DNA of 64,000 nt. It comes from a phage. A model generated the notes under the pieces. That model was not told the origin of the DNA. It did no database searches and was given only the letters and a program-made list of their open reading frames with translations. Positions 2,513 to 15,333 of the stretch are shown here, one piece after another. The stretch is from the sequence record NC_103192.1, one strand, 5' to 3'. The stretch's first letter is position 1. Every line of letters begins with the position of its first letter. The position numbers and the translations under genes are program-made.

Positions 2513-2932
2513 ATGCCACAGGAAGAAATGATTTCCTACGAAATCATCTACGAGCCTGACACTAAAGATGCTCACGGTGAGTGGATGAGTAAAGACACCA
2601 TCAAAAAGGCTAAAGATAACTGGGACGCAGCATACGCCGCAGGCCTAGTTTCTGAAAACCTTTTCCACTTGACCTCTACAGATGCTTTCACCATTGAAAA
2701 GACGTGGATTCAAGAAGAGTTTGATGTTGTAGTAATTGGTACTGAGCAGGTCATCAAGGCTGGCTCTTGGGTTGCTAAAGTTAAATATAACAATCCTGAA
2801 TTATGGGAAGCTAAGAAGGCTGGCATTGTTGGTGGACTAAGCATTCAGGCAACTGGTAATGTTGATGAAGAAACTGGAGAGATCACCAACGTAAACTTCG
2901 GGATCAGTGTTGTAGAAGAGGGCAATGAGTAA
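2513..2932 (+). CDS. XkdF-like protein (putative prohead protease or scaffold-associated)
   Basis: motif YEIIYEPDTKDAHGEWMSKDTIKKA resembles the XkdF/DUF2213 phage family; start uncertain (ATG at 2501, 2513 or 2528); stop overlaps next ATG (TAATG). Confidence 0.35.
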   Translation: MPQEEMISYEIIYEPDTKDAHGEWMSKDTIKKAKDNWDAAYAAGLVSENLFHLTSTDAFTIEKTWIQEEFDVVVIGTEQVIKAGSWVAKVKYNNPELWEAKKAGIVGGLSIQATGNVDEETGEITNVNFGISVVEEGNE

Positions 2933-3912
2933 TGTCTGAAAAAACAATCACTATTAAAGAGAAAGGGATTGCCCTGTGCCATAAGGCGCAAGGCTATAGC
3001 GCTAACAATCGGCCTGTATCTCTTTTAATGAAGAGCGATCTTAAGCCTGAGCAGTTAACAGACGATATTGTTAAGGCACTTCGCCAAGTTACTGTGGAGC
3101 TCAGTTTTGAAGAATACCTGCGTCGTTTTTTCGATATGTGGTATGACGATGCTAAGGCACTGGCTCACCTGCTTGGGTTCGAGATTGAGGAAGAAGCTTG
3201 GGCAAAAGAACACCCAGATTGGGAGTGGGCACAGGCTGATGCAGAGGCTTGTGTGCAGTGGTTAGAAGAACGTTGTGATAACGTAACCATTCACAAAGCT
3301 GCTAAAGAAGGTAAAGATTTAAGTATTGTTGACCAATACACTCTGCTGAAAACCCAACAAGTTTTTGAGCAGATGACCGCTGATCTCTTCGATGAAGAAG
3401 GGAAACTTATTAAAGCGGCACAGGAAACCACAGAAGAAGTTGTTACAGACGCTGTGGACAATGTTGATAAATCCGCAAATACCGAGGAGAATCCGGTGGA
3501 AGACGTAACCAAGTCTCAAGAGTACCTGGACCTGCTGAAACAGTTCGAAGAACTGAAGGCTACCAATGAAAAAGCTGAAGAAATCATCAAGGCTCAGGTA
3601 GAAGTTGAAAAAGCTAAAATGCTGGAAAAAGCTCAAGCGTTAAGCTTCGCTACTGAAGAAGATCACACAACTCTGGTCGAATTCATGCTGGACAAAGCTA
3701 ATGCTTCTGTTGTTGCATTGCTGGAAAAAGCCCAAGCTCGTATTGCTGAACTGGAAGCTGAAGTTGAAAAAGCTAAAGATGAGTTCGCAACTACCGAGCA
3801 AGGCAAAGATGGTGATGTCGTAGTAGATGACATTGCTAAATCTGCTGAAGATATTATTGCTGAAAACGTCGCTAAAGCTCTGGCTCGTGCACGTAAAGAA
3901 TCTAATAAATAA
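2932..3912 (+). CDS. scaffolding protein
   Basis: 326 aa, highly acidic, long Glu/Lys/Ala coiled-coil stretches (AEEIIKAQVEVEKAKMLEKAQ...), located between portal and capsid genes. Confidence 0.55.
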   Translation: MSEKTITIKEKGIALCHKAQGYSANNRPVSLLMKSDLKPEQLTDDIVKALRQVTVELSFEEYLRRFFDMWYDDAKALAHLLGFEIEEEAWAKEHPDWEWAQADAEACVQWLEERCDNVTIHKAAKEGKDLSIVDQYTLLKTQQVFEQMTADLFDEEGKLIKAAQETTEEVVTDAVDNVDKSANTEENPVEDVTKSQEYLDLLKQFEELKATNEKAEEIIKAQVEVEKAKMLEKAQALSFATEEDHTTLVEFMLDKANASVVALLEKAQARIAELEAEVEKAKDEFATTEQGKDGDVVVDDIAKSAEDIIAENVAKALARARKESNK

Positions 3913-8546: not shown

Positions 8547-9923
8547 ATGCCATATTTAGATAAAGTGGTAGATGTTACAGTTAACCTCGGAACCCAACCT
8601 ATTGACACTGTAGGTTTCGAAACTCCCCTGTTCATCGCTATCCACAACAACTTTACTGAGCGAGCTCGTGTATATGCGGAGCTGGATCAGATGGTGGAGG
8701 ATGGTTTCGCACAAGGCTCTGCGGCGTATGAGTTTGCAGCAAAAGCTTTTGGTGGTGTATTCCCTCCACAATACGTTATGATCGGCAGACAGGCTAAAGA
8801 AAAAACCACCGTAGATTTTAAAGGTATTGCTGCTGCAGCCGATACCGATGTCGTAATGACTATTGCAAAAGGTGGCTACAATACTTCTTTGATAGTTCCT
8901 ATCTCTGGTGGGACAGGTGCAACTCAGATTGCAGAATCAATGAAGACTAAAATCGAAGCAGATGATAACTTGAACGATATCACTGTAGAGGCTGCTGATG
9001 GTGTTATCACCATCACTGGTGACTGTACTGTTGGTTATCATACTGGTAACTATACAATCAAAAATATCGCCAGTTCTGAAAAACCTTCTACAGTAGTTGA
9101 TAAGATCAATGCTGAGCGTGATAATTGGTACTTCCTGTGCCATGAAGACCACACCGACATTGAAGCATGTGCTAAGTGGGCTCAGGCCAATTATAAGCTG
9201 CACGTCTACTCTACTGCAGAAGATGTGACTGGCAAAGATAGTAACATCGCTACCAAACTGAAAGCTGCACAATATGACAGTGTTGGCATGTACGATCCTC
9301 GTGCAGATAAGGACTTCCCGGAGGGTGGTATCATAGGTGCTATGGCATCCAACGATCCGTCCTACGGTGACAGCTTGCACCTAAAACAGATGCCAGGTGT
9401 GATTGCACCATCTCTGACTTTAACTCAGCGTATGGCGATTTGGGAAAACCACGTTAACTTCTACAGAATGATTAACGGTGTTGGCGCTTTCTGGGAAGGT
9501 AAGTGTGCTTCAGGTCAGTATGCAGACGCTATTCGTTTTGCACACTGGATCAAGTTCAGATCTGAAGAATCCATGTTTGGGTACATGCATCGCCGCTCCA
9601 ATATGGGTTTAAGTATGAAGATGTCTGATGATGATCTTCCGGTTATCAAGTCTGTTCTGATGAACAACCCGATCAATACTGGCATTAAGAATGGCGCGAT
9701 CCTGACAGGTTTTGACGAAGACAACAATGTGTTCTACGACCCGATCATCACAGTTCCTAAACGTGCAGAGATCCCAACCAATCAGTTGGCTGCTCGTGTT
9801 CTGGAAGGTGTGAAAGTAGAACTGGTGTATAATAACGCCCTGCACTTCGTTCGTATCCGGATCAACGTCCTTCTGGACAAAGTTGGTTCTAAATCCACCA
9901 ATGCTGTTGCAATGACTGAATAA
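8547..9923 (+). CDS. putative tail sheath protein
   Basis: 458 aa, strong RBS; immediately followed by a 157-aa tube-sized gene, then chaperones and tape measure (myovirus order); no diagnostic motif verified. Confidence 0.5.
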   Translation: MPYLDKVVDVTVNLGTQPIDTVGFETPLFIAIHNNFTERARVYAELDQMVEDGFAQGSAAYEFAAKAFGGVFPPQYVMIGRQAKEKTTVDFKGIAAAADTDVVMTIAKGGYNTSLIVPISGGTGATQIAESMKTKIEADDNLNDITVEAADGVITITGDCTVGYHTGNYTIKNIASSEKPSTVVDKINAERDNWYFLCHEDHTDIEACAKWAQANYKLHVYSTAEDVTGKDSNIATKLKAAQYDSVGMYDPRADKDFPEGGIIGAMASNDPSYGDSLHLKQMPGVIAPSLTLTQRMAIWENHVNFYRMINGVGAFWEGKCASGQYADAIRFAHWIKFRSEESMFGYMHRRSNMGLSMKMSDDDLPVIKSVLMNNPINTGIKNGAILTGFDEDNNVFYDPIITVPKRAEIPTNQLAARVLEGVKVELVYNNALHFVRIRINVLLDKVGSKSTNAVAMTE

Positions 9924-9933
9924 GGAAGCCTAG

Positions 9934-10407
9934 ATGGAAACTCAAATTTTAACTCCTTATGCGTATGACCCTAAAAAGGTCAAACTGTATCTGATGCAGC
10001 AGCGTGTCACTGGCTTCGCTGCTGACACCAAGATTGTTGTTTCAAGAAACGAAGACAACATCTACCCTCATGTTGGTGTGGATGGCGAAATGTCTGCAGC
10101 CCTGTCTCGTAACCAATCTGGTGTTATGACTGTGTCTTTGCAGAACACTTCTGTATGGAACGCTTACCTTTCTGACTGGCAGAAACAGGCATCTATTACT
10201 GGTCTGGTATTCTTCCCGGTTCTACTGGAAGGTAGCCAGGGTCCTGGTATTGCTACAATCGGTTGGATCCAGAAACAGCCTGACCTGACTTACGGAACTG
10301 AAGTAGGTCAACTGGACTGGGATATCGGTATTCTGGATGCATGGCTCAACCGTGACAACATCACTGGTGCTCTCACTGGCCTCGCAGGTCTTGCAGGTAT
10401 TATCTAA
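9934..10407 (+). CDS. putative tail tube protein
   Basis: 157 aa, position between sheath-like gene and chaperones; followed by strong terminator. Confidence 0.5.
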   Translation: METQILTPYAYDPKKVKLYLMQQRVTGFAADTKIVVSRNEDNIYPHVGVDGEMSAALSRNQSGVMTVSLQNTSVWNAYLSDWQKQASITGLVFFPVLLEGSQGPGIATIGWIQKQPDLTYGTEVGQLDWDIGILDAWLNRDNITGALTGLAGLAGII

Positions 10408-10512: not shown

Positions 10513-12135
10513 ATGGCTAAATTGAGTGCAGAAAGGTTTATCGAAAAAGCTCGTAGGGTTCACGGAGATAAGTACGACTATTCTCTTATAGAATACAAAA
10601 CATGCAAAGATAAGATAGAAATAGTCTGCAATACCTGTGGTAACCACTTCAACCAGACACCGGATAACCATATAAATCTAAAAAGAGGGTGCCCTGTTTG
10701 TGGAGCTGAGAGATCTGCAAAATCAAGAAAGGGTAAGAAATTCCCCCATGAGCGTGGTAACAGGTGCACTACAGAAGAGTGGATCAAGAAGGTACTAAAA
10801 AGATACCCTGAAAATGCTGAAAAGTATGATTATAGTCATGTAGTGTACAAGACCTCTGGAGATAAGGTTGAGATTCATTGCAAAATGTGCGGAAGAATAA
10901 TGCACCAGAAACCTAGCAAGCATTTATCAGGGCAAGGATGCAAGACTTGCGCAGCAAGATCTGTTTCTGCGAAAAAAGTTCCTAGCTTCCAAGAAATAGT
11001 TGAGAGATGTGTAGAAGTGCATGGTAGTGATTATGAGTATTTTGAAGACTCTTATGTGAACACCTCAACACCTATGATGATGCGCCACAAAGAGTGTGGG
11101 AATATCTTCATGCAGCGTCCTGAATTCCATTACGGGAAAGGACAAGGATGCCCTCGTTGCTGTCGAAATCAGTCTAATGGTGAGAAAGAGCTCCTGACGT
11201 TCATTAAAAGTGTGTATAGCGGCGATATTGAAGAGAACGTGCGTATTCTGGACAACTTTAAGGATCCTTCCAAGAAAAAGATGGAGCTGGACATTTATGT
11301 TCCGGAGCTTAAGCTTGCTGTGGAATATAATGGTGCCTACTGGCACTCTGTAGACAGTAAGGGGAAATGGTACCACATCCTGAAAAGGAAGGCCTGTGAA
11401 AAACAAGGTATTCGCATGTTGTCTATCTGGGATTGTGATTGGCAGGATGCTCGGAAAAGACCTATCATTGAGAGATATCTCAAGAATGCTTTAGGAGTCA
11501 AAGACGAGAAGACCGTCTATGCCAGAAAGTGCACAGTTAAAGATGTGGACAATAAAACTTACCGTGACTTTATGGAGAAAAACCACATTCAAGGGTATGC
11601 CCCCGCCAAGGAAGTGAAGAAGGGTCTGTTTACATCTGACGGCGAACTGGTAGCTTGTATGAGTTTTAAAATACTGAAAAACAGAGATCAAAAGGTAACC
11701 CCTTTCGTTATGTGGGATATGGTAAGGTATGCAACAAGCTGTAACGTTCCCGGTGGGCGTAGTAAGCTGTTTAAGCATATCCGAGAAGAGTTTAAGATGG
11801 ATCATGTTCAATCCTTCCTTGACAGAGATTACTTCACAGGCGTGTCCTATAAGGAGGATGGCTGGATTTTGGCAGAGGACGATCAGGTGTCTACTAGCTT
11901 CTGGAGCTACCGTGGTGGCAGAATGCCGAGGCAGGCGTGGTGGAAGTCAAACATCCCAGAGACACTGAAGCATCTCGGGTTGGACGAGTCCTTATACGAT
12001 CCTGAGAAAACACAAGAGTGGAATGCCAAAAATGCAGGCTGCTATATCCTTGAAAACAGTGGCAACTCCCGCTTTGAATGGCACAGCGATGAAGGTAAAA
12101 ATGATCCTGCATACTTGGATTGGTTGAAAGGTTAA
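10513..12135 (+). CDS. free-standing homing-endonuclease-like protein
   Basis: 540 aa; three N-terminal repeats each with paired CxxC motifs (CNTCGN...GCPVCG; CKMCGR...GCKTC; HKECGN...GCPRCC); central ELDIYVPELKLAVEYNGAYWHS resembles a PD-(D/E)xK (Vsr-like) nuclease core; own promoter and terminator. Confidence 0.5.
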   Translation: MAKLSAERFIEKARRVHGDKYDYSLIEYKTCKDKIEIVCNTCGNHFNQTPDNHINLKRGCPVCGAERSAKSRKGKKFPHERGNRCTTEEWIKKVLKRYPENAEKYDYSHVVYKTSGDKVEIHCKMCGRIMHQKPSKHLSGQGCKTCAARSVSAKKVPSFQEIVERCVEVHGSDYEYFEDSYVNTSTPMMMRHKECGNIFMQRPEFHYGKGQGCPRCCRNQSNGEKELLTFIKSVYSGDIEENVRILDNFKDPSKKKMELDIYVPELKLAVEYNGAYWHSVDSKGKWYHILKRKACEKQGIRMLSIWDCDWQDARKRPIIERYLKNALGVKDEKTVYARKCTVKDVDNKTYRDFMEKNHIQGYAPAKEVKKGLFTSDGELVACMSFKILKNRDQKVTPFVMWDMVRYATSCNVPGGRSKLFKHIREEFKMDHVQSFLDRDYFTGVSYKEDGWILAEDDQVSTSFWSYRGGRMPRQAWWKSNIPETLKHLGLDESLYDPEKTQEWNAKNAGCYILENSGNSRFEWHSDEGKNDPAYLDWLKG

Positions 12136-12136
12136 A

Positions 12137-12165
12137 TTGACAATGCACTATAATCATGGTAAAAT
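12137..12165 (+). promoter_or_regulatory. promoter TTGACA-17-TGgTAAAAT
   Basis: consensus -35 at 12137-12142, extended -10 at 12157-12165. Confidence 0.6.
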
Positions 12166-12208
12166 ACACAAATATGGTGCACAACATGACTAATAAGGAT
12201 GCTATAAA

Positions 12209-12682
12209 ATGGCTATAAACTTTAGACCTACAACAGAGATTGATTTAGCAGGGCACAACTTTGTGATCACCCACTGGGGACCGATGAAGGCAATGAAAAA
12301 CATGCCTAAAATCGGTAAGATTGTAGCTGTCCCGCTAGGTGCTATCGGTGGATCTATTCTCTCAGGCGGTCAGAATATGGCAGAGGTACTTCCTACAGCC
12401 CTGGCTTACCTGTTTCAAGAACTTGATGATAACTCTATTGAAGAGTTATTTAAAATCTTGTTCGAAGATATTACCGTGGATGGTGTGGATAAGCTTAACC
12501 CTGATGTTGTGTTTGCAGGGCATCTGCTGGAGATGATTAAGCTGGCAGGTAAGGTTCTGGAGGTTAACTACGGCTGTTTTTTCACACAAGACGGTTTAGG
12601 AAGCCTTCTGGAGATGTTACAGCAGATGGGTATGATTCAGCAGGTGAACAGTCTGGATCAGACTCCGGAAGAGCAGGAATAA
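12209..12682 (+). CDS. tail assembly chaperone (G-like)
   Basis: 157 aa directly upstream of the tape measure gene; contains slippery heptamer; acidic C-terminus. Confidence 0.6.
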   Translation: MAINFRPTTEIDLAGHNFVITHWGPMKAMKNMPKIGKIVAVPLGAIGGSILSGGQNMAEVLPTALAYLFQELDDNSIEELFKILFEDITVDGVDKLNPDVVFAGHLLEMIKLAGKVLEVNYGCFFTQDGLGSLLEMLQQMGMIQQVNSLDQTPEEQE

Positions 12683-12942
12683 GCAAGGTTGTTGTGAGGG
12701 CCAGTGAGTGGGCAGCCAAGAACAGTTCACTTAACTGGTTCGACTTTCTTTGGTGCAGGGTGCTCAAGAATTTCAAAGGGGAAAATTTTGAATCGCTAAA
12801 TCTTGCAGATATGGCGTATTTCCTGAAGCTCTGTGAGTATCTTGATATCGAAGAATTCCTAGATACCGTCCAAAACAGGGAAATGGAGCGGGAGCAGAAG
12901 GCTGCCGCAGCTGCTGCGAAAGCTAAGCGCAGGAGAGGATAA
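12209..12942 (+). CDS. tail assembly chaperone GT-like frameshift fusion (join 12209..12583, 12583..12942)
   Basis: predicted 244-aa product by -1 slip at 12577-12583; downstream part ends in Ala/Lys-rich tail (QKAAAAAAKAKRRRG). Confidence 0.5.
12577..12583 (+). other. -1 programmed ribosomal frameshift slippery site T_TTT_TTC
   Basis: X_XXY_YYZ heptamer in the zero frame of the chaperone ORF; the -1 frame opens at 12568 (TAA at 12565-12567) and stays open to 12942. Confidence 0.6.
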
Positions 12943-12947
12943 TCTAA

Positions 12948-12985
12948 GGGCCGGATTCCTTTTCTGGGATCTGGCCCTTTTTATT
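12948..12985 (+). terminator. stem-loop with U-tract between chaperone and tape measure genes (possible attenuator)
   Basis: GGGCCGGAU/AUCUGGCCC 9-bp stem (one G-U), 12-nt loop, then TTTTTATT. Confidence 0.4.
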
Positions 12986-12996
12986 ATGAGGAAACC

Positions 12997-15333
12997 ATGG
13001 CTACAAACAAAATAGTTGCCACAACAGTCAACAAGATTGGCTTTGAGATAGAGAACTCCTCCTACAAAAAAGCTGTAGAGAAAATTCGCAGTATTGGGAG
13101 GGAGTTCAGGAAACTAGGTGAGGATTTTAACTCAGCCAACCCCATGAGTAGATGGCAGGCGGTAGCTGTTAAAACCCAGCAGACAATGCAGCGGGTTGCC
13201 AGACAGCAATCTCAGGCAAATGCTAAACTGCACAGGGAGAGCGTAGCACAGGCCAAGAAAGAGGCTGCAGTAAGGGCTGCAATAGAACGTAGGGAGAATG
13301 CGAGACGTAAACAAGCTGTAGGTAATCTTACCGCTAAAAATCCAGAAATGGCTAGGATGCGTAAGTTCTACCAGCAGCAAGCTAAAGAGGCCAAAAAGGC
13401 TGCCAAATCTGCACCAGTGTCTTACGGCGGTTATAAGGCACCCAAGGCAAGAGTTTTGGCTAATGCCAAATCTTTCAAGTATATCCCAGGTAACCCTAAT
13501 ATGGGTGGTGTGGCTTCCGACCCTAACCTTGTGAAAGCTCAGACAGCCGCTATGAATCGTTATCATAGACAGCTAAGAAGAGACAGTAAAGCTGGTATGG
13601 ATAATAAGCTTATGTCGGATCGTGAGGCAAGGAGAACCCACCTCTACAACTCTGCGATAAGACTTTCTGCCAAGTACGGAGCCGGATTCCGTGGAAGCTT
13701 GCCAGGATACTCAGAGTTAGAGTCCAGGTTTGCTCGCGGGGAGATGAAAAAGTCAACCTTTAACGCCCACCTGTCAGCTCTGCAGTCCGGATTTAAAAGC
13801 GCCACCAGCCAAACGCTTACACTGGGTGATGCCATGAGAGACTTACGTAGGTCTGTTATTAATGCAACAGCTGCGTACACGGCTTTCTCTGGATTTACTG
13901 CTGTGAACAGATCTGGTCACATGATGGAGGGGGCAAGTGCTGCTCTTACTGCTGTTACTGGAGATCCAAACAAAGCCAACAGTGAGGTTGCGTTTGTCCA
14001 GCAAGAGGCTATGCGTCTTGGCTTTGATCTCAAATCTGGTCTTCAAGGTTACGCCCAAATGTCGGTAAACGCCAAAAACCAGATGACAAATCAGGAAGTG
14101 CATGAGCTGTTTTCTGCATATTCCCAGTATGCTGCTGCTTATGGTGCCGATGAGGTAAAATACCAGCGCGGTATTATGGCAATCCAACAGATGCTTGGCA
14201 AGGGACAAGTAATGTCCGAAGAACTGAAGCAACAACTTGCTGAAGCATTGCCCGGTGCATACGAACCTTTTATCAAGGCCACCAAAGAGGCTTTTGGTCT
14301 TTCTGAACTATCCATGGATCAGTTCATGGATATGATGAAGAAAGGTGAGGTTAAGACAGCCAAGATCATGAAGTATGTGGCTAAGTACATGAACGAGGCA
14401 TCTGCAGCTGGTTATGAAAGAATGCAGAAGTCTAACGTGCTGGCAGAAAACAGACTGAAAACCTTCATCGAACTGACTCGTCAGAAACTGTTCACTCGTT
14501 GGTCTGACGAACTAACAGAGTTCTATTATACACTAATCCGCACTGGTGAGACTCTGCAATTTGTGTGGGATGCCTCTGGTGATTTTGTTAGCGGGTTTGT
14601 GAGAGGCCTTAACTGGGTAGTTGGTGAACTAAACAACACTATAGTCAAGATCCGCATGTTTTTCCTTGAATGGGGGATTAAATGGGGATTCATAACAGCT
14701 AAGACGAAGGAATATTCTGAAGAGCTTCATGACACCTTTAGCTATGCTAAATGGGCAGGGTTTGCTGCTGCCATCATGCTGGTAGTCAACGCCCTAACAA
14801 AAGGTTTTGTCATGGCATCCATGCTTGTAAAAACCTTTAAATTCCTTAACTCTCTAAGGGGTGCAGCTGGAGCAGCAGGTGCCGCTACTACAGAAGGATC
14901 TGGTGGTGGAGCTCCGGCAGGAAAAGGTGGAGGTGGCCTCAAGACACCTGGTGGCAAAGTTGGTCTGCTCGGTAAGCTGGGCATTATCGGTACAATACTA
15001 AGCGCCGGGGAATTATTTAATGACCGTTACAACCCACTAAGTGAAAGAAATCAGCAGCTGGATACTATCAGCGATATGATTCGCAAAGATATCATATCGG
15101 GAGGTAACGGGTTTGTTAATCCTTTGGACACCTTACCGGGAGGGACTCTTCCGTTGCCAGGTGGCCCTGGTTTTGCCTCTCAATTAAGAACTATGGAAAT
15201 GCTACCTTTAGAGATCAGTGATGGGAAAATCACGCTTTCCATAGATGAGGGCGAGTTTAGCAAAATACTTGATGCAAAACTTGAGTGGGAGAACAGTAAA
15301 GATATCAACTTCATGTCTACCGACCTTTGGTAA
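12997..15333 (+). CDS. tail tape measure protein
   Basis: 778 aa, helical Ala/Gln/Lys-rich N-half, Gly-rich segment (GAAGAAGAATTEGSGGGAPAGKGGGG), directly downstream of frameshifted chaperones. Confidence 0.75.
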   Translation: MATNKIVATTVNKIGFEIENSSYKKAVEKIRSIGREFRKLGEDFNSANPMSRWQAVAVKTQQTMQRVARQQSQANAKLHRESVAQAKKEAAVRAAIERRENARRKQAVGNLTAKNPEMARMRKFYQQQAKEAKKAAKSAPVSYGGYKAPKARVLANAKSFKYIPGNPNMGGVASDPNLVKAQTAAMNRYHRQLRRDSKAGMDNKLMSDREARRTHLYNSAIRLSAKYGAGFRGSLPGYSELESRFARGEMKKSTFNAHLSALQSGFKSATSQTLTLGDAMRDLRRSVINATAAYTAFSGFTAVNRSGHMMEGASAALTAVTGDPNKANSEVAFVQQEAMRLGFDLKSGLQGYAQMSVNAKNQMTNQEVHELFSAYSQYAAAYGADEVKYQRGIMAIQQMLGKGQVMSEELKQQLAEALPGAYEPFIKATKEAFGLSELSMDQFMDMMKKGEVKTAKIMKYVAKYMNEASAAGYERMQKSNVLAENRLKTFIELTRQKLFTRWSDELTEFYYTLIRTGETLQFVWDASGDFVSGFVRGLNWVVGELNNTIVKIRMFFLEWGIKWGFITAKTKEYSEELHDTFSYAKWAGFAAAIMLVVNALTKGFVMASMLVKTFKFLNSLRGAAGAAGAATTEGSGGGAPAGKGGGGLKTPGGKVGLLGKLGIIGTILSAGELFNDRYNPLSERNQQLDTISDMIRKDIISGGNGFVNPLDTLPGGTLPLPGGPGFASQLRTMEMLPLEISDGKITLSIDEGEFSKILDAKLEWENSKDINFMSTDLW

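What the first reader, a model, noticed from the sequence alone, without database searches (positions are those of the whole stretch)
12565..12942. Canonical -1 frameshift in the tail chaperone with a precisely opening shifted frame
The heptamer T_TTT_TTC at 12577-12583 lies in the zero frame of the chaperone ORF. The -1 frame has a stop at 12565-12567 and is open from 12568 to 12942, so it opens 9 nt before the slip site and extends 260 nt past the zero-frame stop. The predicted fusion is 244 aa with an Ala/Lys-rich tail, matching the conserved G/GT strategy upstream of tape measure genes.
Basis: seen in the sequence. Interest (0 to 1): 0.5.

Follow-up and report, generated by a model that had tools for sequence, protein, structure and literature searches.

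The report
Tail chaperone -1 frameshift site
This rV5-like E. coli phage almost certainly makes a long form of its tail assembly chaperone by a ribosome slipping back one base on TTTTTTC, the standard phage G/GT trick: real and strongly conserved, but ordinary, though public records of this phage group do not annotate it.

Summary
The window is an rV5-like Vequintavirus. ORF 12209-12682 is a tail assembly chaperone (Pfam PF21822) lying between the tube gene and the tape measure gene. T_TTT_TTC (12577-12583) is in zero-frame register. The -1 frame is open from 12568 to 12942, and the fusion is 244 aa.

Comparative evidence supports a programmed -1 shift:
- The in-register heptamer is present in all 47 loci that carry the Tyr-x-x-Phe-Phe site (28 distinct sequence contexts, chaperone identity down to 28%), and its synonymous positions never vary.
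- Rheinheimera phage Barba5A has G_GGA_AAG three codons downstream instead.
- The -1 product is conserved from the first codon after the slip (RFR motif, Gly/Ser linker, about 85-aa helical domain).
- Most relatives have no start codon ahead of that domain.
- The +1 frame never extends.

The site is homologous to the frameshift already annotated in Citrobacter phage Moogle. I found no conserved downstream stimulator for this genus. A GGAGG lies 13 nt upstream and may help. No examined public record annotates the fusion for rV5-like phages. Verdict: a new member of a well-known kind, of low interest.

The parts
12137..12165 (+). Sigma-70-type promoter of the chaperone transcription unit (TTGACA-17 nt-TAAAAT, with TG)
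   Evidence: 11 of 12 consensus matches. The rV5 record annotates the equivalent site as promoter P51.
12209..12682 (+). Short chaperone form (G-like, TAC-N), 157 aa, zero frame
   Evidence: PF21822 Phage_TAC_15 E=1e-23; phrog_3840 E=9e-69. AlphaFold model: mean pLDDT 69; the model helix spanning residues 106-125 ends at the slip-site residues 124-125; the zero-frame tail 126-157 has falling confidence (block means 59 to 33).
12559..12563 (+). Shine-Dalgarno-like GGAGG with a 13-nt spacer to the heptamer; possible upstream stimulator (inferred)
   Evidence: Read from the sequence. A GGAGG, GAGG or GGAG core lies at 13-14 nt in 21 of 27 distinct contexts, and in Moogle at 13 nt. It overlaps conserved Leu-Glu-Val codons, so it may be a by-product of coding.
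12565..12567 (+). Last stop codon (TAA) in the -1 frame before the slip site
12577..12583 (+). Slippery heptamer T_TTT_TTC; both the P-site and the A-site tRNA are tRNA-Phe
   Evidence: Invariant in 28 of 28 distinct contexts, including the synonymous third positions. U_UU.U_UU.C is listed among shift-prone E. coli motifs in PMC4066793.
12583..12684 (+). First part of the -1 frame: conserved RFR motif directly after the junction, then a Gly/Ser-rich linker of variable length
   Evidence: Alignment. Residues 1-21 and 25-30 of the T part have pLDDT below 50 and there is no secondary structure before residue 35.
12685..12942 (+). T-like C-terminal helical domain, basic Ala/Lys/Arg tail and the -1 frame stop (TAA 12940-12942)
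   Evidence: phrog_10409 E=8.5e-51. Conserved across all lineages. Helices at residues 35-47, 52-63, 69-74 and 77-118 of the T part, pLDDT 73-92.
12946..12979 (+). Intrinsic terminator-like hairpin (14 pairs) plus T-run, between the -1 stop and the tape measure start
   Evidence: annotated as a terminator in rV5. Equivalent hairpins with different stem sequences occur in the other Vequintavirinae genera and in Aeromonas phiA009.
12997..15333 (+). Tape measure protein gene (778 aa)
   Evidence: phrog_5255 at 1132.7 bits; PF20155 TMP_3.
9934..10407 (+). Tail tube gene (context; sheath gene at 8547-9923 upstream)
   Evidence: phrog_280 and PF11681; sheath phrog_205.

Best explanation
A programmed -1 ribosomal frameshift of the lambda G/GT type.

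Mechanism proposed (inferred steps marked):
1. Most ribosomes translate 12209-12682 and release the 157-aa chaperone.
2. A minority slip back one base when tRNA-Phe occupies both the P site (UUU) and the A site (UUC) on U_UUU_UUC at 12577-12583. Both tRNAs re-pair with UUU UUU.
3. These ribosomes continue from CAC at 12583 in the -1 frame to the TAA at 12940-12942. The product is a 244-aa fusion: the chaperone core (residues 1-125), a disordered Gly/Ser linker, and a helical domain of about 85 residues with a basic tail.
4. By analogy with lambda gpG/gpGT (inferred, not tested here), the shared N-terminal part coats the tape measure protein. The extra C-terminal domain recruits the tube protein. 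The low slip rate fixes a high short-to-long ratio.

The slip is probably driven by the heptamer itself. The GGAGG 13 nt upstream may help (inferred). No conserved downstream structure was found for this genus.

Shown here: the sequence anatomy, the family membership of the chaperone and the tape measure protein, and the evolutionary conservation of the site and of the -1 product.
Inferred: that the fusion is actually made, its amount, and what the C-terminal domain binds.
For: (1) Anatomy confirmed.

(2) Gene identity and order are sheath, tube, [homing endonuclease], chaperone, tape measure.

(3) In-register T_TTT_TTC is present in 13 of 14 GenBank representatives, 33 of 33 IMG/VR loci and 4 of 4 metagenome loci. 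These span chaperone identities from 28% to 99%.

(4) Across 28 distinct 78-nt contexts, the three heptamer codons never vary at synonymous sites: Cys TGT 18/18, Pro CCT 9/9, Ser AGT 1/1, TTT 28/28, TTC 28/28. In L051 the preceding codon is Ser TCT. The residue before Phe-Phe changes but its third base stays T. The neighbouring Tyr, Val, Leu and Lys codons vary freely. Genome-wide usage is about 50:50 for these codon pairs.

(5) Barba5A lacks Phe-Phe and instead has G_GGA_AAG three codons downstream. Its -1 product rejoins the alignment there (VFRIPSG against RFRKPSG).

(6) The -1 frame always extends 224-296 nt past the stop and ends just before the tape measure gene. The +1 frame extends at most 61 nt.

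(7) The -1 protein is conserved from the first codon after the slip.

(8) In most lineages there is no ATG, GTG or TTG in the -1 frame ahead of the conserved domain. The first such codon is at aa 83 in Seu621, aa 67 in the Erwinia phage and aa 63 in POP15. In nieznany I read no start codon between the upstream -1 stop and the heptamer in the sequence shown.

(9) Database gene calls for the T part are fragments of 43-102 aa with inconsistent starts, and none is a fusion.

(10) Moogle, whose record annotates the slippage, has the same heptamer. A BLASTP alignment of the two fusions runs through the junction (E=2e-8).

(11) U_UU.U_UU.C is shift-prone in E. coli (PMC4066793).

(12) The same strategy, with a conserved GTTTTT motif, is reported for the sister families Vandenendeviridae and Andersonviridae (PMC12846349).

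(13) The terminator follows the -1 stop rather than the zero-frame stop, so the T ORF lies on the same transcript.
Against: - There is no experimental product. The rV5 genome/proteome paper (PMC3606486) contains none of the searched terms ('frameshift', gp50/gp51, ORF50/'ORF 50', 'tape measure').
- No significant downstream stimulatory structure was found in this genus: z = -0.95 and +0.72, RNAalifold -3.2 kcal/mol, and a small hairpin at 12593-12605 without covariation.
- The upstream GGAGG is only partly conserved and overlaps conserved codons.
- In this window alone a separate start cannot be excluded. GTG 12694 sits near the start of the conserved domain, and CTG 12574 lies 10 nt after GGAGG.
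- Synonymous invariance of the heptamer could in principle also arise from dual coding of Phe-Phe in both frames.
Confidence: 0.88

Rival explanations
1. The -1 ORF is an independent small gene, as GenBank records annotate it. Translation would start at GTG 12694 (82 aa), or at the near-cognate CTG 12574 that lies 10 nt after the GGAGG (122 aa, as rV5 ORF50 is annotated). No fusion would be made.
For: All 17 public records examined annotate a separate 'hypothetical protein'. rV5 ORF50 is annotated from the CTG. Some relatives have ATG (Erwinia phage, L018) or TTG (L027) at that triplet, and one database protein starts MFFQERFR. GGAGG could serve as a ribosome binding site.
Against: There is no conserved start. 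The triplet is CCC in Stephanstirmvirinae, ATC in L051 and GAG in phiA009. Most lineages have no ATG, GTG or TTG ahead of the conserved domain and no SD there. Annotated starts differ from record to record and cut into the conserved domain. The residues directly after the heptamer are conserved even where no start precedes them. GTG 12694 has only a weak AAGG upstream.
Confidence: 0.05
2. The long form arises by transcriptional slippage. RNA polymerase would add one extra U in the T6 run, and standard translation of that mRNA would give the same 244-aa protein.
For: A one-base insertion in the run yields exactly the same amino-acid sequence (C-F-F-H...), so the protein sequence cannot distinguish the two routes (my inference from the sequence). 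Homopolymer runs are known slippage sites (review PMC5009743). [quoted passage not shown]
Against: From general knowledge of bacterial RNA polymerase slippage (not tested here), a run of only six T is short of the 8-9 or more usually needed. The conserved feature is the exact in-register heptamer including the final C, not run length. Barba5A uses G_GGA_AAG, a ribosomal slip motif with no long homopolymer.
Confidence: 0.05
3. Chance: a non-functional slippery heptamer that happens to lie next to an open -1 frame.
For: In-register heptamers are common, 49 in this window. A second in-register TTTTTTC at 3126 has no -1 extension.
Against: Conservation of the site, the register, the -1 ORF length and the -1 protein sequence across at least five virus subfamilies or genera-level groups.
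Confidence: 0.02

Closest known systems
Citrobacter phage Moogle 'tape measure chaperone' with annotated translational frameshift (KM236239, CPT_Moogle67/68; PMC4319497)
   Same: Same heptamer T_TTT_TTC in register. Same GGAGG 13 nt upstream. Same peptide context (LEANFGSFF against LEVNYGCFF). The -1 extension of 236 nt ends at the tape measure gene. BLASTP of the two fusions gives E=2e-8 and aligns through the junction.
   Different: A different subfamily (Ounavirinae), only 24% identity, and a shorter fusion (212 aa). In Moogle the slippage is annotated. In rV5-like records it is not.
Conserved -1 PRF with GTTTTT motif in the chaperone locus of Vandenendeviridae (Pakpunavirus Adele) and Andersonviridae (PMC12846349, 2025)
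   Same: Same strategy. [quoted passage not shown] The downstream ORF is likewise mis-annotated as a hypothetical protein. The argument there also rests on an uninterrupted -1 frame.
   Different: That study analysed the chaperone locus only in those two families, not in Vequintavirinae or Stephanstirmvirinae. Here the exact register, the synonymous-site invariance, the absence of start codons and a relocated alternative heptamer are shown as well.
Phage lambda gpG/gpGT (Levin 1993; Xu, Hendrix & Duda 2004, 2013, 2014, as summarised in PMC5009743)
   Same: Two overlapping ORFs just upstream of the tape measure gene. A -1 slip near the end of the first ORF gives a minor fusion protein. No strong RNA stimulator is needed. 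Barba5A even uses lambda's heptamer G_GGA_AAG.
   Different: A myovirus rather than a siphovirus. The heptamer is U_UUU_UUC rather than G_GGA_AAG. There is no detectable sequence similarity to gpG or gpT. The roles of the domains are only inferred here.
E. coli dnaX -1 frameshift
   Same: A -1 slip on a homopolymeric heptamer with a Shine-Dalgarno-like element upstream (13 nt here).
   Different: dnaX also has a strong downstream hairpin and yields a truncated rather than an extended product. Here no downstream structure is supported, and the SD-like element is not proven to act.

Membership tests
G/GT-type tail assembly chaperone with programmed -1 frameshift (Xu, Hendrix & Duda 2004) | Two overlapping ORFs located between the major tail/tube gene and the tape measure gene | tested here: met
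   Tube 9934-10407, chaperone 12209-12682, -1 ORF to 12942, tape measure 12997-15333. An HNH endonuclease gene is inserted between tube and chaperone in this window. In rV5 the two are adjacent.
G/GT-type tail assembly chaperone with programmed -1 frameshift (Xu, Hendrix & Duda 2004) | [quoted passage not shown] | tested here: met
   T_TTT_TTC at 12577-12583, codons 124-125 of 157.
G/GT-type tail assembly chaperone with programmed -1 frameshift (Xu, Hendrix & Duda 2004) | Slip site and shifted ORF conserved among diverged relatives | tested here: met
   All 47 loci carrying the Tyr-x-x-Phe-Phe site have the heptamer (28 distinct contexts). Barba5A has G_GGA_AAG instead. The -1 extension is 224-296 nt in every full-length locus.
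G/GT-type tail assembly chaperone with programmed -1 frameshift (Xu, Hendrix & Duda 2004) | Second ORF lacks its own conserved start codon and ribosome binding site | tested here: met
   most lineages have no start codon ahead of the conserved domain. In this window only GTG 12694, without a good SD. Gene-caller fragments of 43-102 aa have inconsistent starts.
G/GT-type tail assembly chaperone with programmed -1 frameshift (Xu, Hendrix & Duda 2004) | Fusion protein made at a low fixed ratio and required for tail assembly | not testable with these tools
   Needs proteomics, a reporter assay or genetics. The rV5 proteome paper contains none of the searched terms for this locus or for a frameshift.
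Pfam PF21822 Phage_TAC_15 | Whole-protein score above the curated gathering threshold | tested here: met
   84.5 bits against a cut-off of 22, E=1.1e-23, residues 15-129. All 73 database homologues carry PF21822.
Tail assembly chaperone fold (solved structures) | Predicted structure matches a solved chaperone structure | tested here: inconclusive
   The model has pLDDT 69. The best PDB match is 5ir0 (Vibrio PLE ORF19) at E=0.46, TM 0.43/0.60. No sequence hit to any solved chain.
dnaX-like stimulated -1 frameshift | Shine-Dalgarno-like element about 10-14 nt upstream of the heptamer | tested here: inconclusive
   GGAGG at 12559-12563 with a 13-nt spacer. An SD core lies at 13-14 nt in 21 of 27 contexts and in Moogle. 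It coincides with conserved Leu-Glu-Val codons and is absent in Certrevirus and Mydovirus.
dnaX-like stimulated -1 frameshift | Stable hairpin or pseudoknot 5-9 nt downstream | tested here: not met
   z-scores -0.95 and +0.72. No consensus structure. Lineage-specific folds only. The small hairpin at 12593-12605 shows no covariation. The long-range helix seen in sister genera is not formed here. Pseudoknots were not searched exhaustively.
Transcriptional slippage sites | Long homopolymer run (usually 8-9 or more) conserved as a run rather than as an in-register heptamer | tested here: not met
   The run is six T followed by an invariant C. The register is conserved. Barba5A has GGGAAAG.

The most novel reading that the evidence does not exclude
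The frameshift site is one ancient, homologous recoding signal: Leu-Glu-x-Asn-Tyr/Phe-Gly-x-Phe-Phe, encoded as GGAGG, a 13-nt spacer, then U_UUU_UUC. It would be shared by Vequintavirinae, Stephanstirmvirinae, Ounavirinae/Andersonviridae and related myoviruses.

Its stimulators would differ by lineage. Several sister genera appear to use a long-range RNA helix that starts 6 nt after the heptamer and pairs with the sequence immediately after the short form's stop codon. Vequintavirus would have lost this helix and would rely on the upstream SD-like element alone. A long-range, stop-codon-spanning stimulator would be unusual for a phage G/GT site.
Probability: 0.25. Interest if true: 0.45.

Novelty: new member of a known kind. 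Interest (0 to 1): 0.2.

Why it matters
Practically, it corrects annotation. None of the rV5-like, phi92-like and related genome records examined lists the fusion, nor does any of the homologous proteins returned from a 5.8-billion-protein database. They list the long chaperone form as an unrelated 'hypothetical protein' with arbitrary starts. rV5-like phages are used in phage therapy and biocontrol collections, so correct structural-gene annotation has some value.

Biologically, it extends the conserved G/GT recoding strategy to another large group of myoviruses. It shows the same U_UUU_UUC signal preserved at the same codon over very deep divergence. It does not change any concept.

Tried and rejected
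- Local downstream hairpin or pseudoknot in 12584-12640 and 12584-12683: energies are no better than shuffles.
- RNAalifold on ten Vequintavirinae sequences: -3.2 kcal/mol, with only a weak long-range helix.
- Per-lineage folds of the 45 nt after the heptamer: no common structure.
- Small hairpin GGUUU-AGG-AAGCC at 12593-12605: 84% of cells paired but no compensatory change, and the control slid by one column gives 75%. Rejected as unsupported.
- Long-range pairing of 12589-12607 with 12850-12871: 16 bp, -18.5 kcal/mol, p about 0.1 against shuffles. It is not conserved in the nearest outgroup L051. Rejected as probably chance.
- Rfam scan of 12100-13100: only sub-threshold noise.
- Solved-structure sequence search with the fusion: nothing.
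- Fold searches: the T domain matches only its own family plus weak hits to the Moogle chaperone (E=1.0) and a PAK_P5 small protein. The N-terminal domain has no significant PDB match.
- Search for naturally in-frame fusions of the two domains: none among 1.84 billion representative proteins.
- Vladimirov et al. 2022 on T4-like chaperones could not be read.

Full report
**1. What the window is**

The 1-kb stretch around the finding is 98-99% identical to Escherichia phage rV5, HMD-6 and more than 100 other Vequintavirus genomes. The local gene order on the plus strand is:
- tail sheath, 8547-9923 (phrog_205);
- tail tube, 9934-10407 (phrog_280, PF11681);
- a 540-aa HNH homing endonuclease, 10513-12135 (phrog_559);
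- tail assembly chaperone, 12209-12682 (PF21822 Phage_TAC_15, 84.5 bits against a cut-off of 22; phrog_3840, E=9e-69);
- an ORF in another frame ending at 12942 (phrog_10409, 'unknown function');
- tape measure protein, 12997-15333 (phrog_5255, PF20155);
- baseplate genes.

**2. Check of the observation**

- TTTTTTC is at 12577-12583. Zero-frame codons are TGT, TTT, TTC, so the register is T_TTT_TTC.
- The -1 frame has TAA at 12565-12567 and is open from 12568 to the TAA at 12940-12942.
- A slip gives 125 + 119 = 244 aa, ending ...EQKAAAAAAKAKRRRG.

A slippery heptamer in register is not rare by itself. The 47 plus-strand genes of the window hold 49 of them, and TTTTTTC is not enriched. But among 54 genes, this is the only one where such a heptamer lies inside an overlap with a -1 ORF that continues past the stop. 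A second in-register TTTTTTC at 3126 runs into a -1 stop after five codons.

**3. Comparative evidence**

I collected the locus from:
- 14 GenBank phages covering five Vequintavirinae genera, two Stephanstirmvirinae genera, Aeromonas Plateaulakevirus and Rheinheimera Barbavirus;
- 33 IMG/VR contigs;
- 4 metagenome contigs.

The results are as follows.

(a) The heptamer is present and in register at the same codon in all 47 loci that carry the Tyr-x-x-Phe-Phe site. Chaperone identity among them falls to 28%.

(b) Across 28 distinct 78-nt contexts, the heptamer codons never vary at synonymous positions: TGT 18/18, CCT 9/9, AGT 1/1, TTT 28/28, TTC 28/28. The amino acid before Phe-Phe changes (Cys, Pro, Ser) but keeps T as its third base. 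The flanking conserved Tyr, Val, Leu and Lys codons vary freely. This phage uses TTT/TTC and TGT/TGC about equally.

(c) Barba5A has lost Phe-Phe. It carries G_GGA_AAG, lambda's own heptamer, three codons downstream, and its -1 product rejoins the family alignment exactly there. A relocated, different slippery site is hard to explain except by selection for ribosomal frameshifting.

(d) The -1 frame always runs 224-296 nt past the stop and ends shortly before the tape measure gene. The +1 frame never runs more than 61 nt.

(e) The -1 translation is conserved as protein from the first codon after the slip. It has an Arg-Phe-Arg motif, then a Gly/Ser-rich linker of variable length, then a conserved domain (…KNSSLxWFDYLWCR…LKLNEYLDxEEF…) and a basic tail.

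(f) Most lineages have no ATG, GTG or TTG in the -1 frame ahead of that domain. The first such codon is at aa 83 in Seu621, aa 67 in the Erwinia phage and aa 63 in POP15. In Stephanstirmvirinae I read no start codon between the upstream -1 stop and the heptamer in the nieznany sequence shown. The domain therefore cannot be expressed there by separate initiation.

(g) Gene callers produce fragments of 43-102 aa with inconsistent starts. No fusion-length protein was found:
- all 73 homologues returned by the 5.8-billion-protein search are short forms of 149-159 aa;
- no fusion-length phage protein appears among the 1.84 billion representatives.

**4. Structure**

AlphaFold models are of moderate confidence, built from shallow alignments.
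- In the chaperone model (pLDDT 69), a helix spanning residues 106-125 ends at the slip-site residues 124-125. The zero-frame tail 126-157 has falling confidence, with block means from 59 down to 33.
- In the -1 part, residues 1-21 and 25-30 are below pLDDT 50. Four helices follow (35-47, 52-63, 69-74, 77-118) with pLDDT 73-92.
- This matches the G/GT architecture: a shared core, then either a short tail or a linker plus an extra domain.
- Fold searches gave no significant match outside the family. The best outside hit for the T domain was, weakly, the Moogle 'tape measure chaperone'.

**5. Link to what is known**

Citrobacter phage Moogle (Ounavirinae) is annotated with a joined 'tape measure chaperone' CDS, and its announcement mentions a translational frameshift.
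- Its sequence reads …ttGGAGGcaaacttcggaagTTTTTTCgag…. That is the same heptamer in register, the same GGAGG 13 nt upstream, and the peptide LEANFGSFF against LEVNYGCFF here.
- BLASTP of the two conceptual fusions gives E=2e-8. The alignment runs across the junction into the -1 frame (FFHTRRFRKPS against FFRGKHFQKPN).

A 2025 paper describes the same strategy and a conserved GTTTTT motif in Vandenendeviridae and Andersonviridae (PMC12846349). It analysed the chaperone locus only in those two families, not in Vequintavirinae. The rV5 genome paper contains none of the searched terms for this locus or for a frameshift. rV5 ORF50 is annotated from a CTG immediately before the T-run. None of the 17 records I opened annotates a join. 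In E. coli, U_UU.U_UU.C belongs to the shift-prone H_HH.U_UU.Y class and is used by IS elements (PMC4066793).

**6. Stimulators**

- Local folds are no better than shuffles.
- The alignment fold is negligible.
- Folds differ between lineages.
- The small hairpin at 12593-12605 shows no covariation.

An SD-like GGAGG lies 13 nt upstream of the heptamer. From my own knowledge of the dnaX literature (not checked here), that spacing is within the range that stimulates -1 shifts. A core of at least 4 nt is present at 13-14 nt in 21 of 27 contexts and in Moogle. However, it overlaps conserved Leu-Glu-Val codons and is absent in two genera, so its role is only a hypothesis.

In sister genera (Mydo-, Seuna-, Henuna-, Certrevirus and allies) I found a long-range helix. 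It begins 6 nt after the heptamer (GACGGT, GGCGGT or AGCGGT) and pairs with ACCGTC, ACCGCC or CCGCT immediately after the zero-frame stop. 83% of cells are paired against 21-51% in slid controls, two pairs show compensatory changes, and 0 of 500 shuffles reach the observed value. This helix is not formed in the window or in its nearest outgroup. The window's best alternative partner (12850-12871, p about 0.1) is not conserved.

**7. Rivals**

- Separate initiation is contradicted by points (e) to (g) of section 3.
- Transcriptional slippage would give the same protein, but it is disfavoured. The run is short, the conserved feature is register plus the final C, and Barba5A uses GGGAAAG.
- Chance is excluded by the conservation.

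**8. Verdict**

This is a real, conserved, canonical -1 frameshift site of the G/GT kind. It is homologous to one already annotated in a related subfamily, but unannotated in rV5-like genomes. It is a new member of a known kind and of low interest. The lineage-specific stimulators are a modest open question.

Noticed in passing
window 10513-12135: A 540-aa HNH/DUF723-type homing endonuclease gene sits between the tube gene and the chaperone promoter. rV5 lacks it (162 nt between tube and chaperone). HMD-6 has an ORF at the same position, annotated 'hypothetical protein'. The 75%-identity gut-metagenome relatives (L051, L052) have a DUF723/DUF4379 ORF at the same place, which suggests a mobile insertion.
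   Followed up: partly
window 12946-12979 (and 12137-12165): A strong intrinsic terminator lies directly after the -1 frame stop and only 18 nt before the tape measure start codon. A near-consensus promoter lies just upstream of the chaperone gene. Equivalent hairpin plus T-run elements with different stem sequences occur in all other Vequintavirinae genera examined and in Aeromonas phiA009, but not in Stephanstirmvirinae. This may be an attenuator that keeps chaperone transcripts in excess over tape measure transcripts.
   Followed up: partly
L003, L004, L006-L009, L018, L025, L030, L034, L035, L048, L053 (sister genera); not the window: A long-range RNA helix starts 6 nt after the slippery heptamer and pairs with the sequence 1 nt after the short form's stop codon, about 90 nt away. 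It shows compensatory changes (GACGGT:ACCGTC, GGCGGT:ACCGCC, AGCGG:CCGCT). In A5-4 the pairing is 12 bp continuous and includes the stop codon (-21.9 kcal/mol, p=0.005). It may be a lineage-specific frameshift stimulator. It is absent in Vequintavirus.
   Followed up: partly
window 3126-3132: A second T_TTT_TTC lies in zero-frame register inside ORF 2932-3912. The -1 frame stops five codons later, so a slip there would only truncate the protein. It is probably not functional.
   Followed up: yes
L002 1961-2329 (rV5 ORF50) and other GenBank records: The downstream ORF is annotated inconsistently: a CTG start abutting the T-run in rV5 (122 aa), GTG (82 aa) in HMD-6 and FFH2, 43-80 aa in other genera, and not annotated at all in Seu621 and nieznany. 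This is a symptom of the missed frameshift.
   Followed up: yes
L011, L013, L014, L033, L036-L047 (Stephanstirmvirinae-like): These phages carry a 10-nt double slippery sequence C_CCU_UUU_UUC. Both C_CCU_UUU and U_UUU_UUC are in register, which might raise or tune slip efficiency.
   Followed up: no
L051, L052 and proteins P0005-P0045: A group of roughly 140-kb contigs from human-gut and other metagenomes encodes a chaperone about 75% identical to this window's. It fills the gap between Vequintavirus (98%) and the other genera (about 55%), and may be an undescribed Vequintavirinae genus.
   Followed up: no
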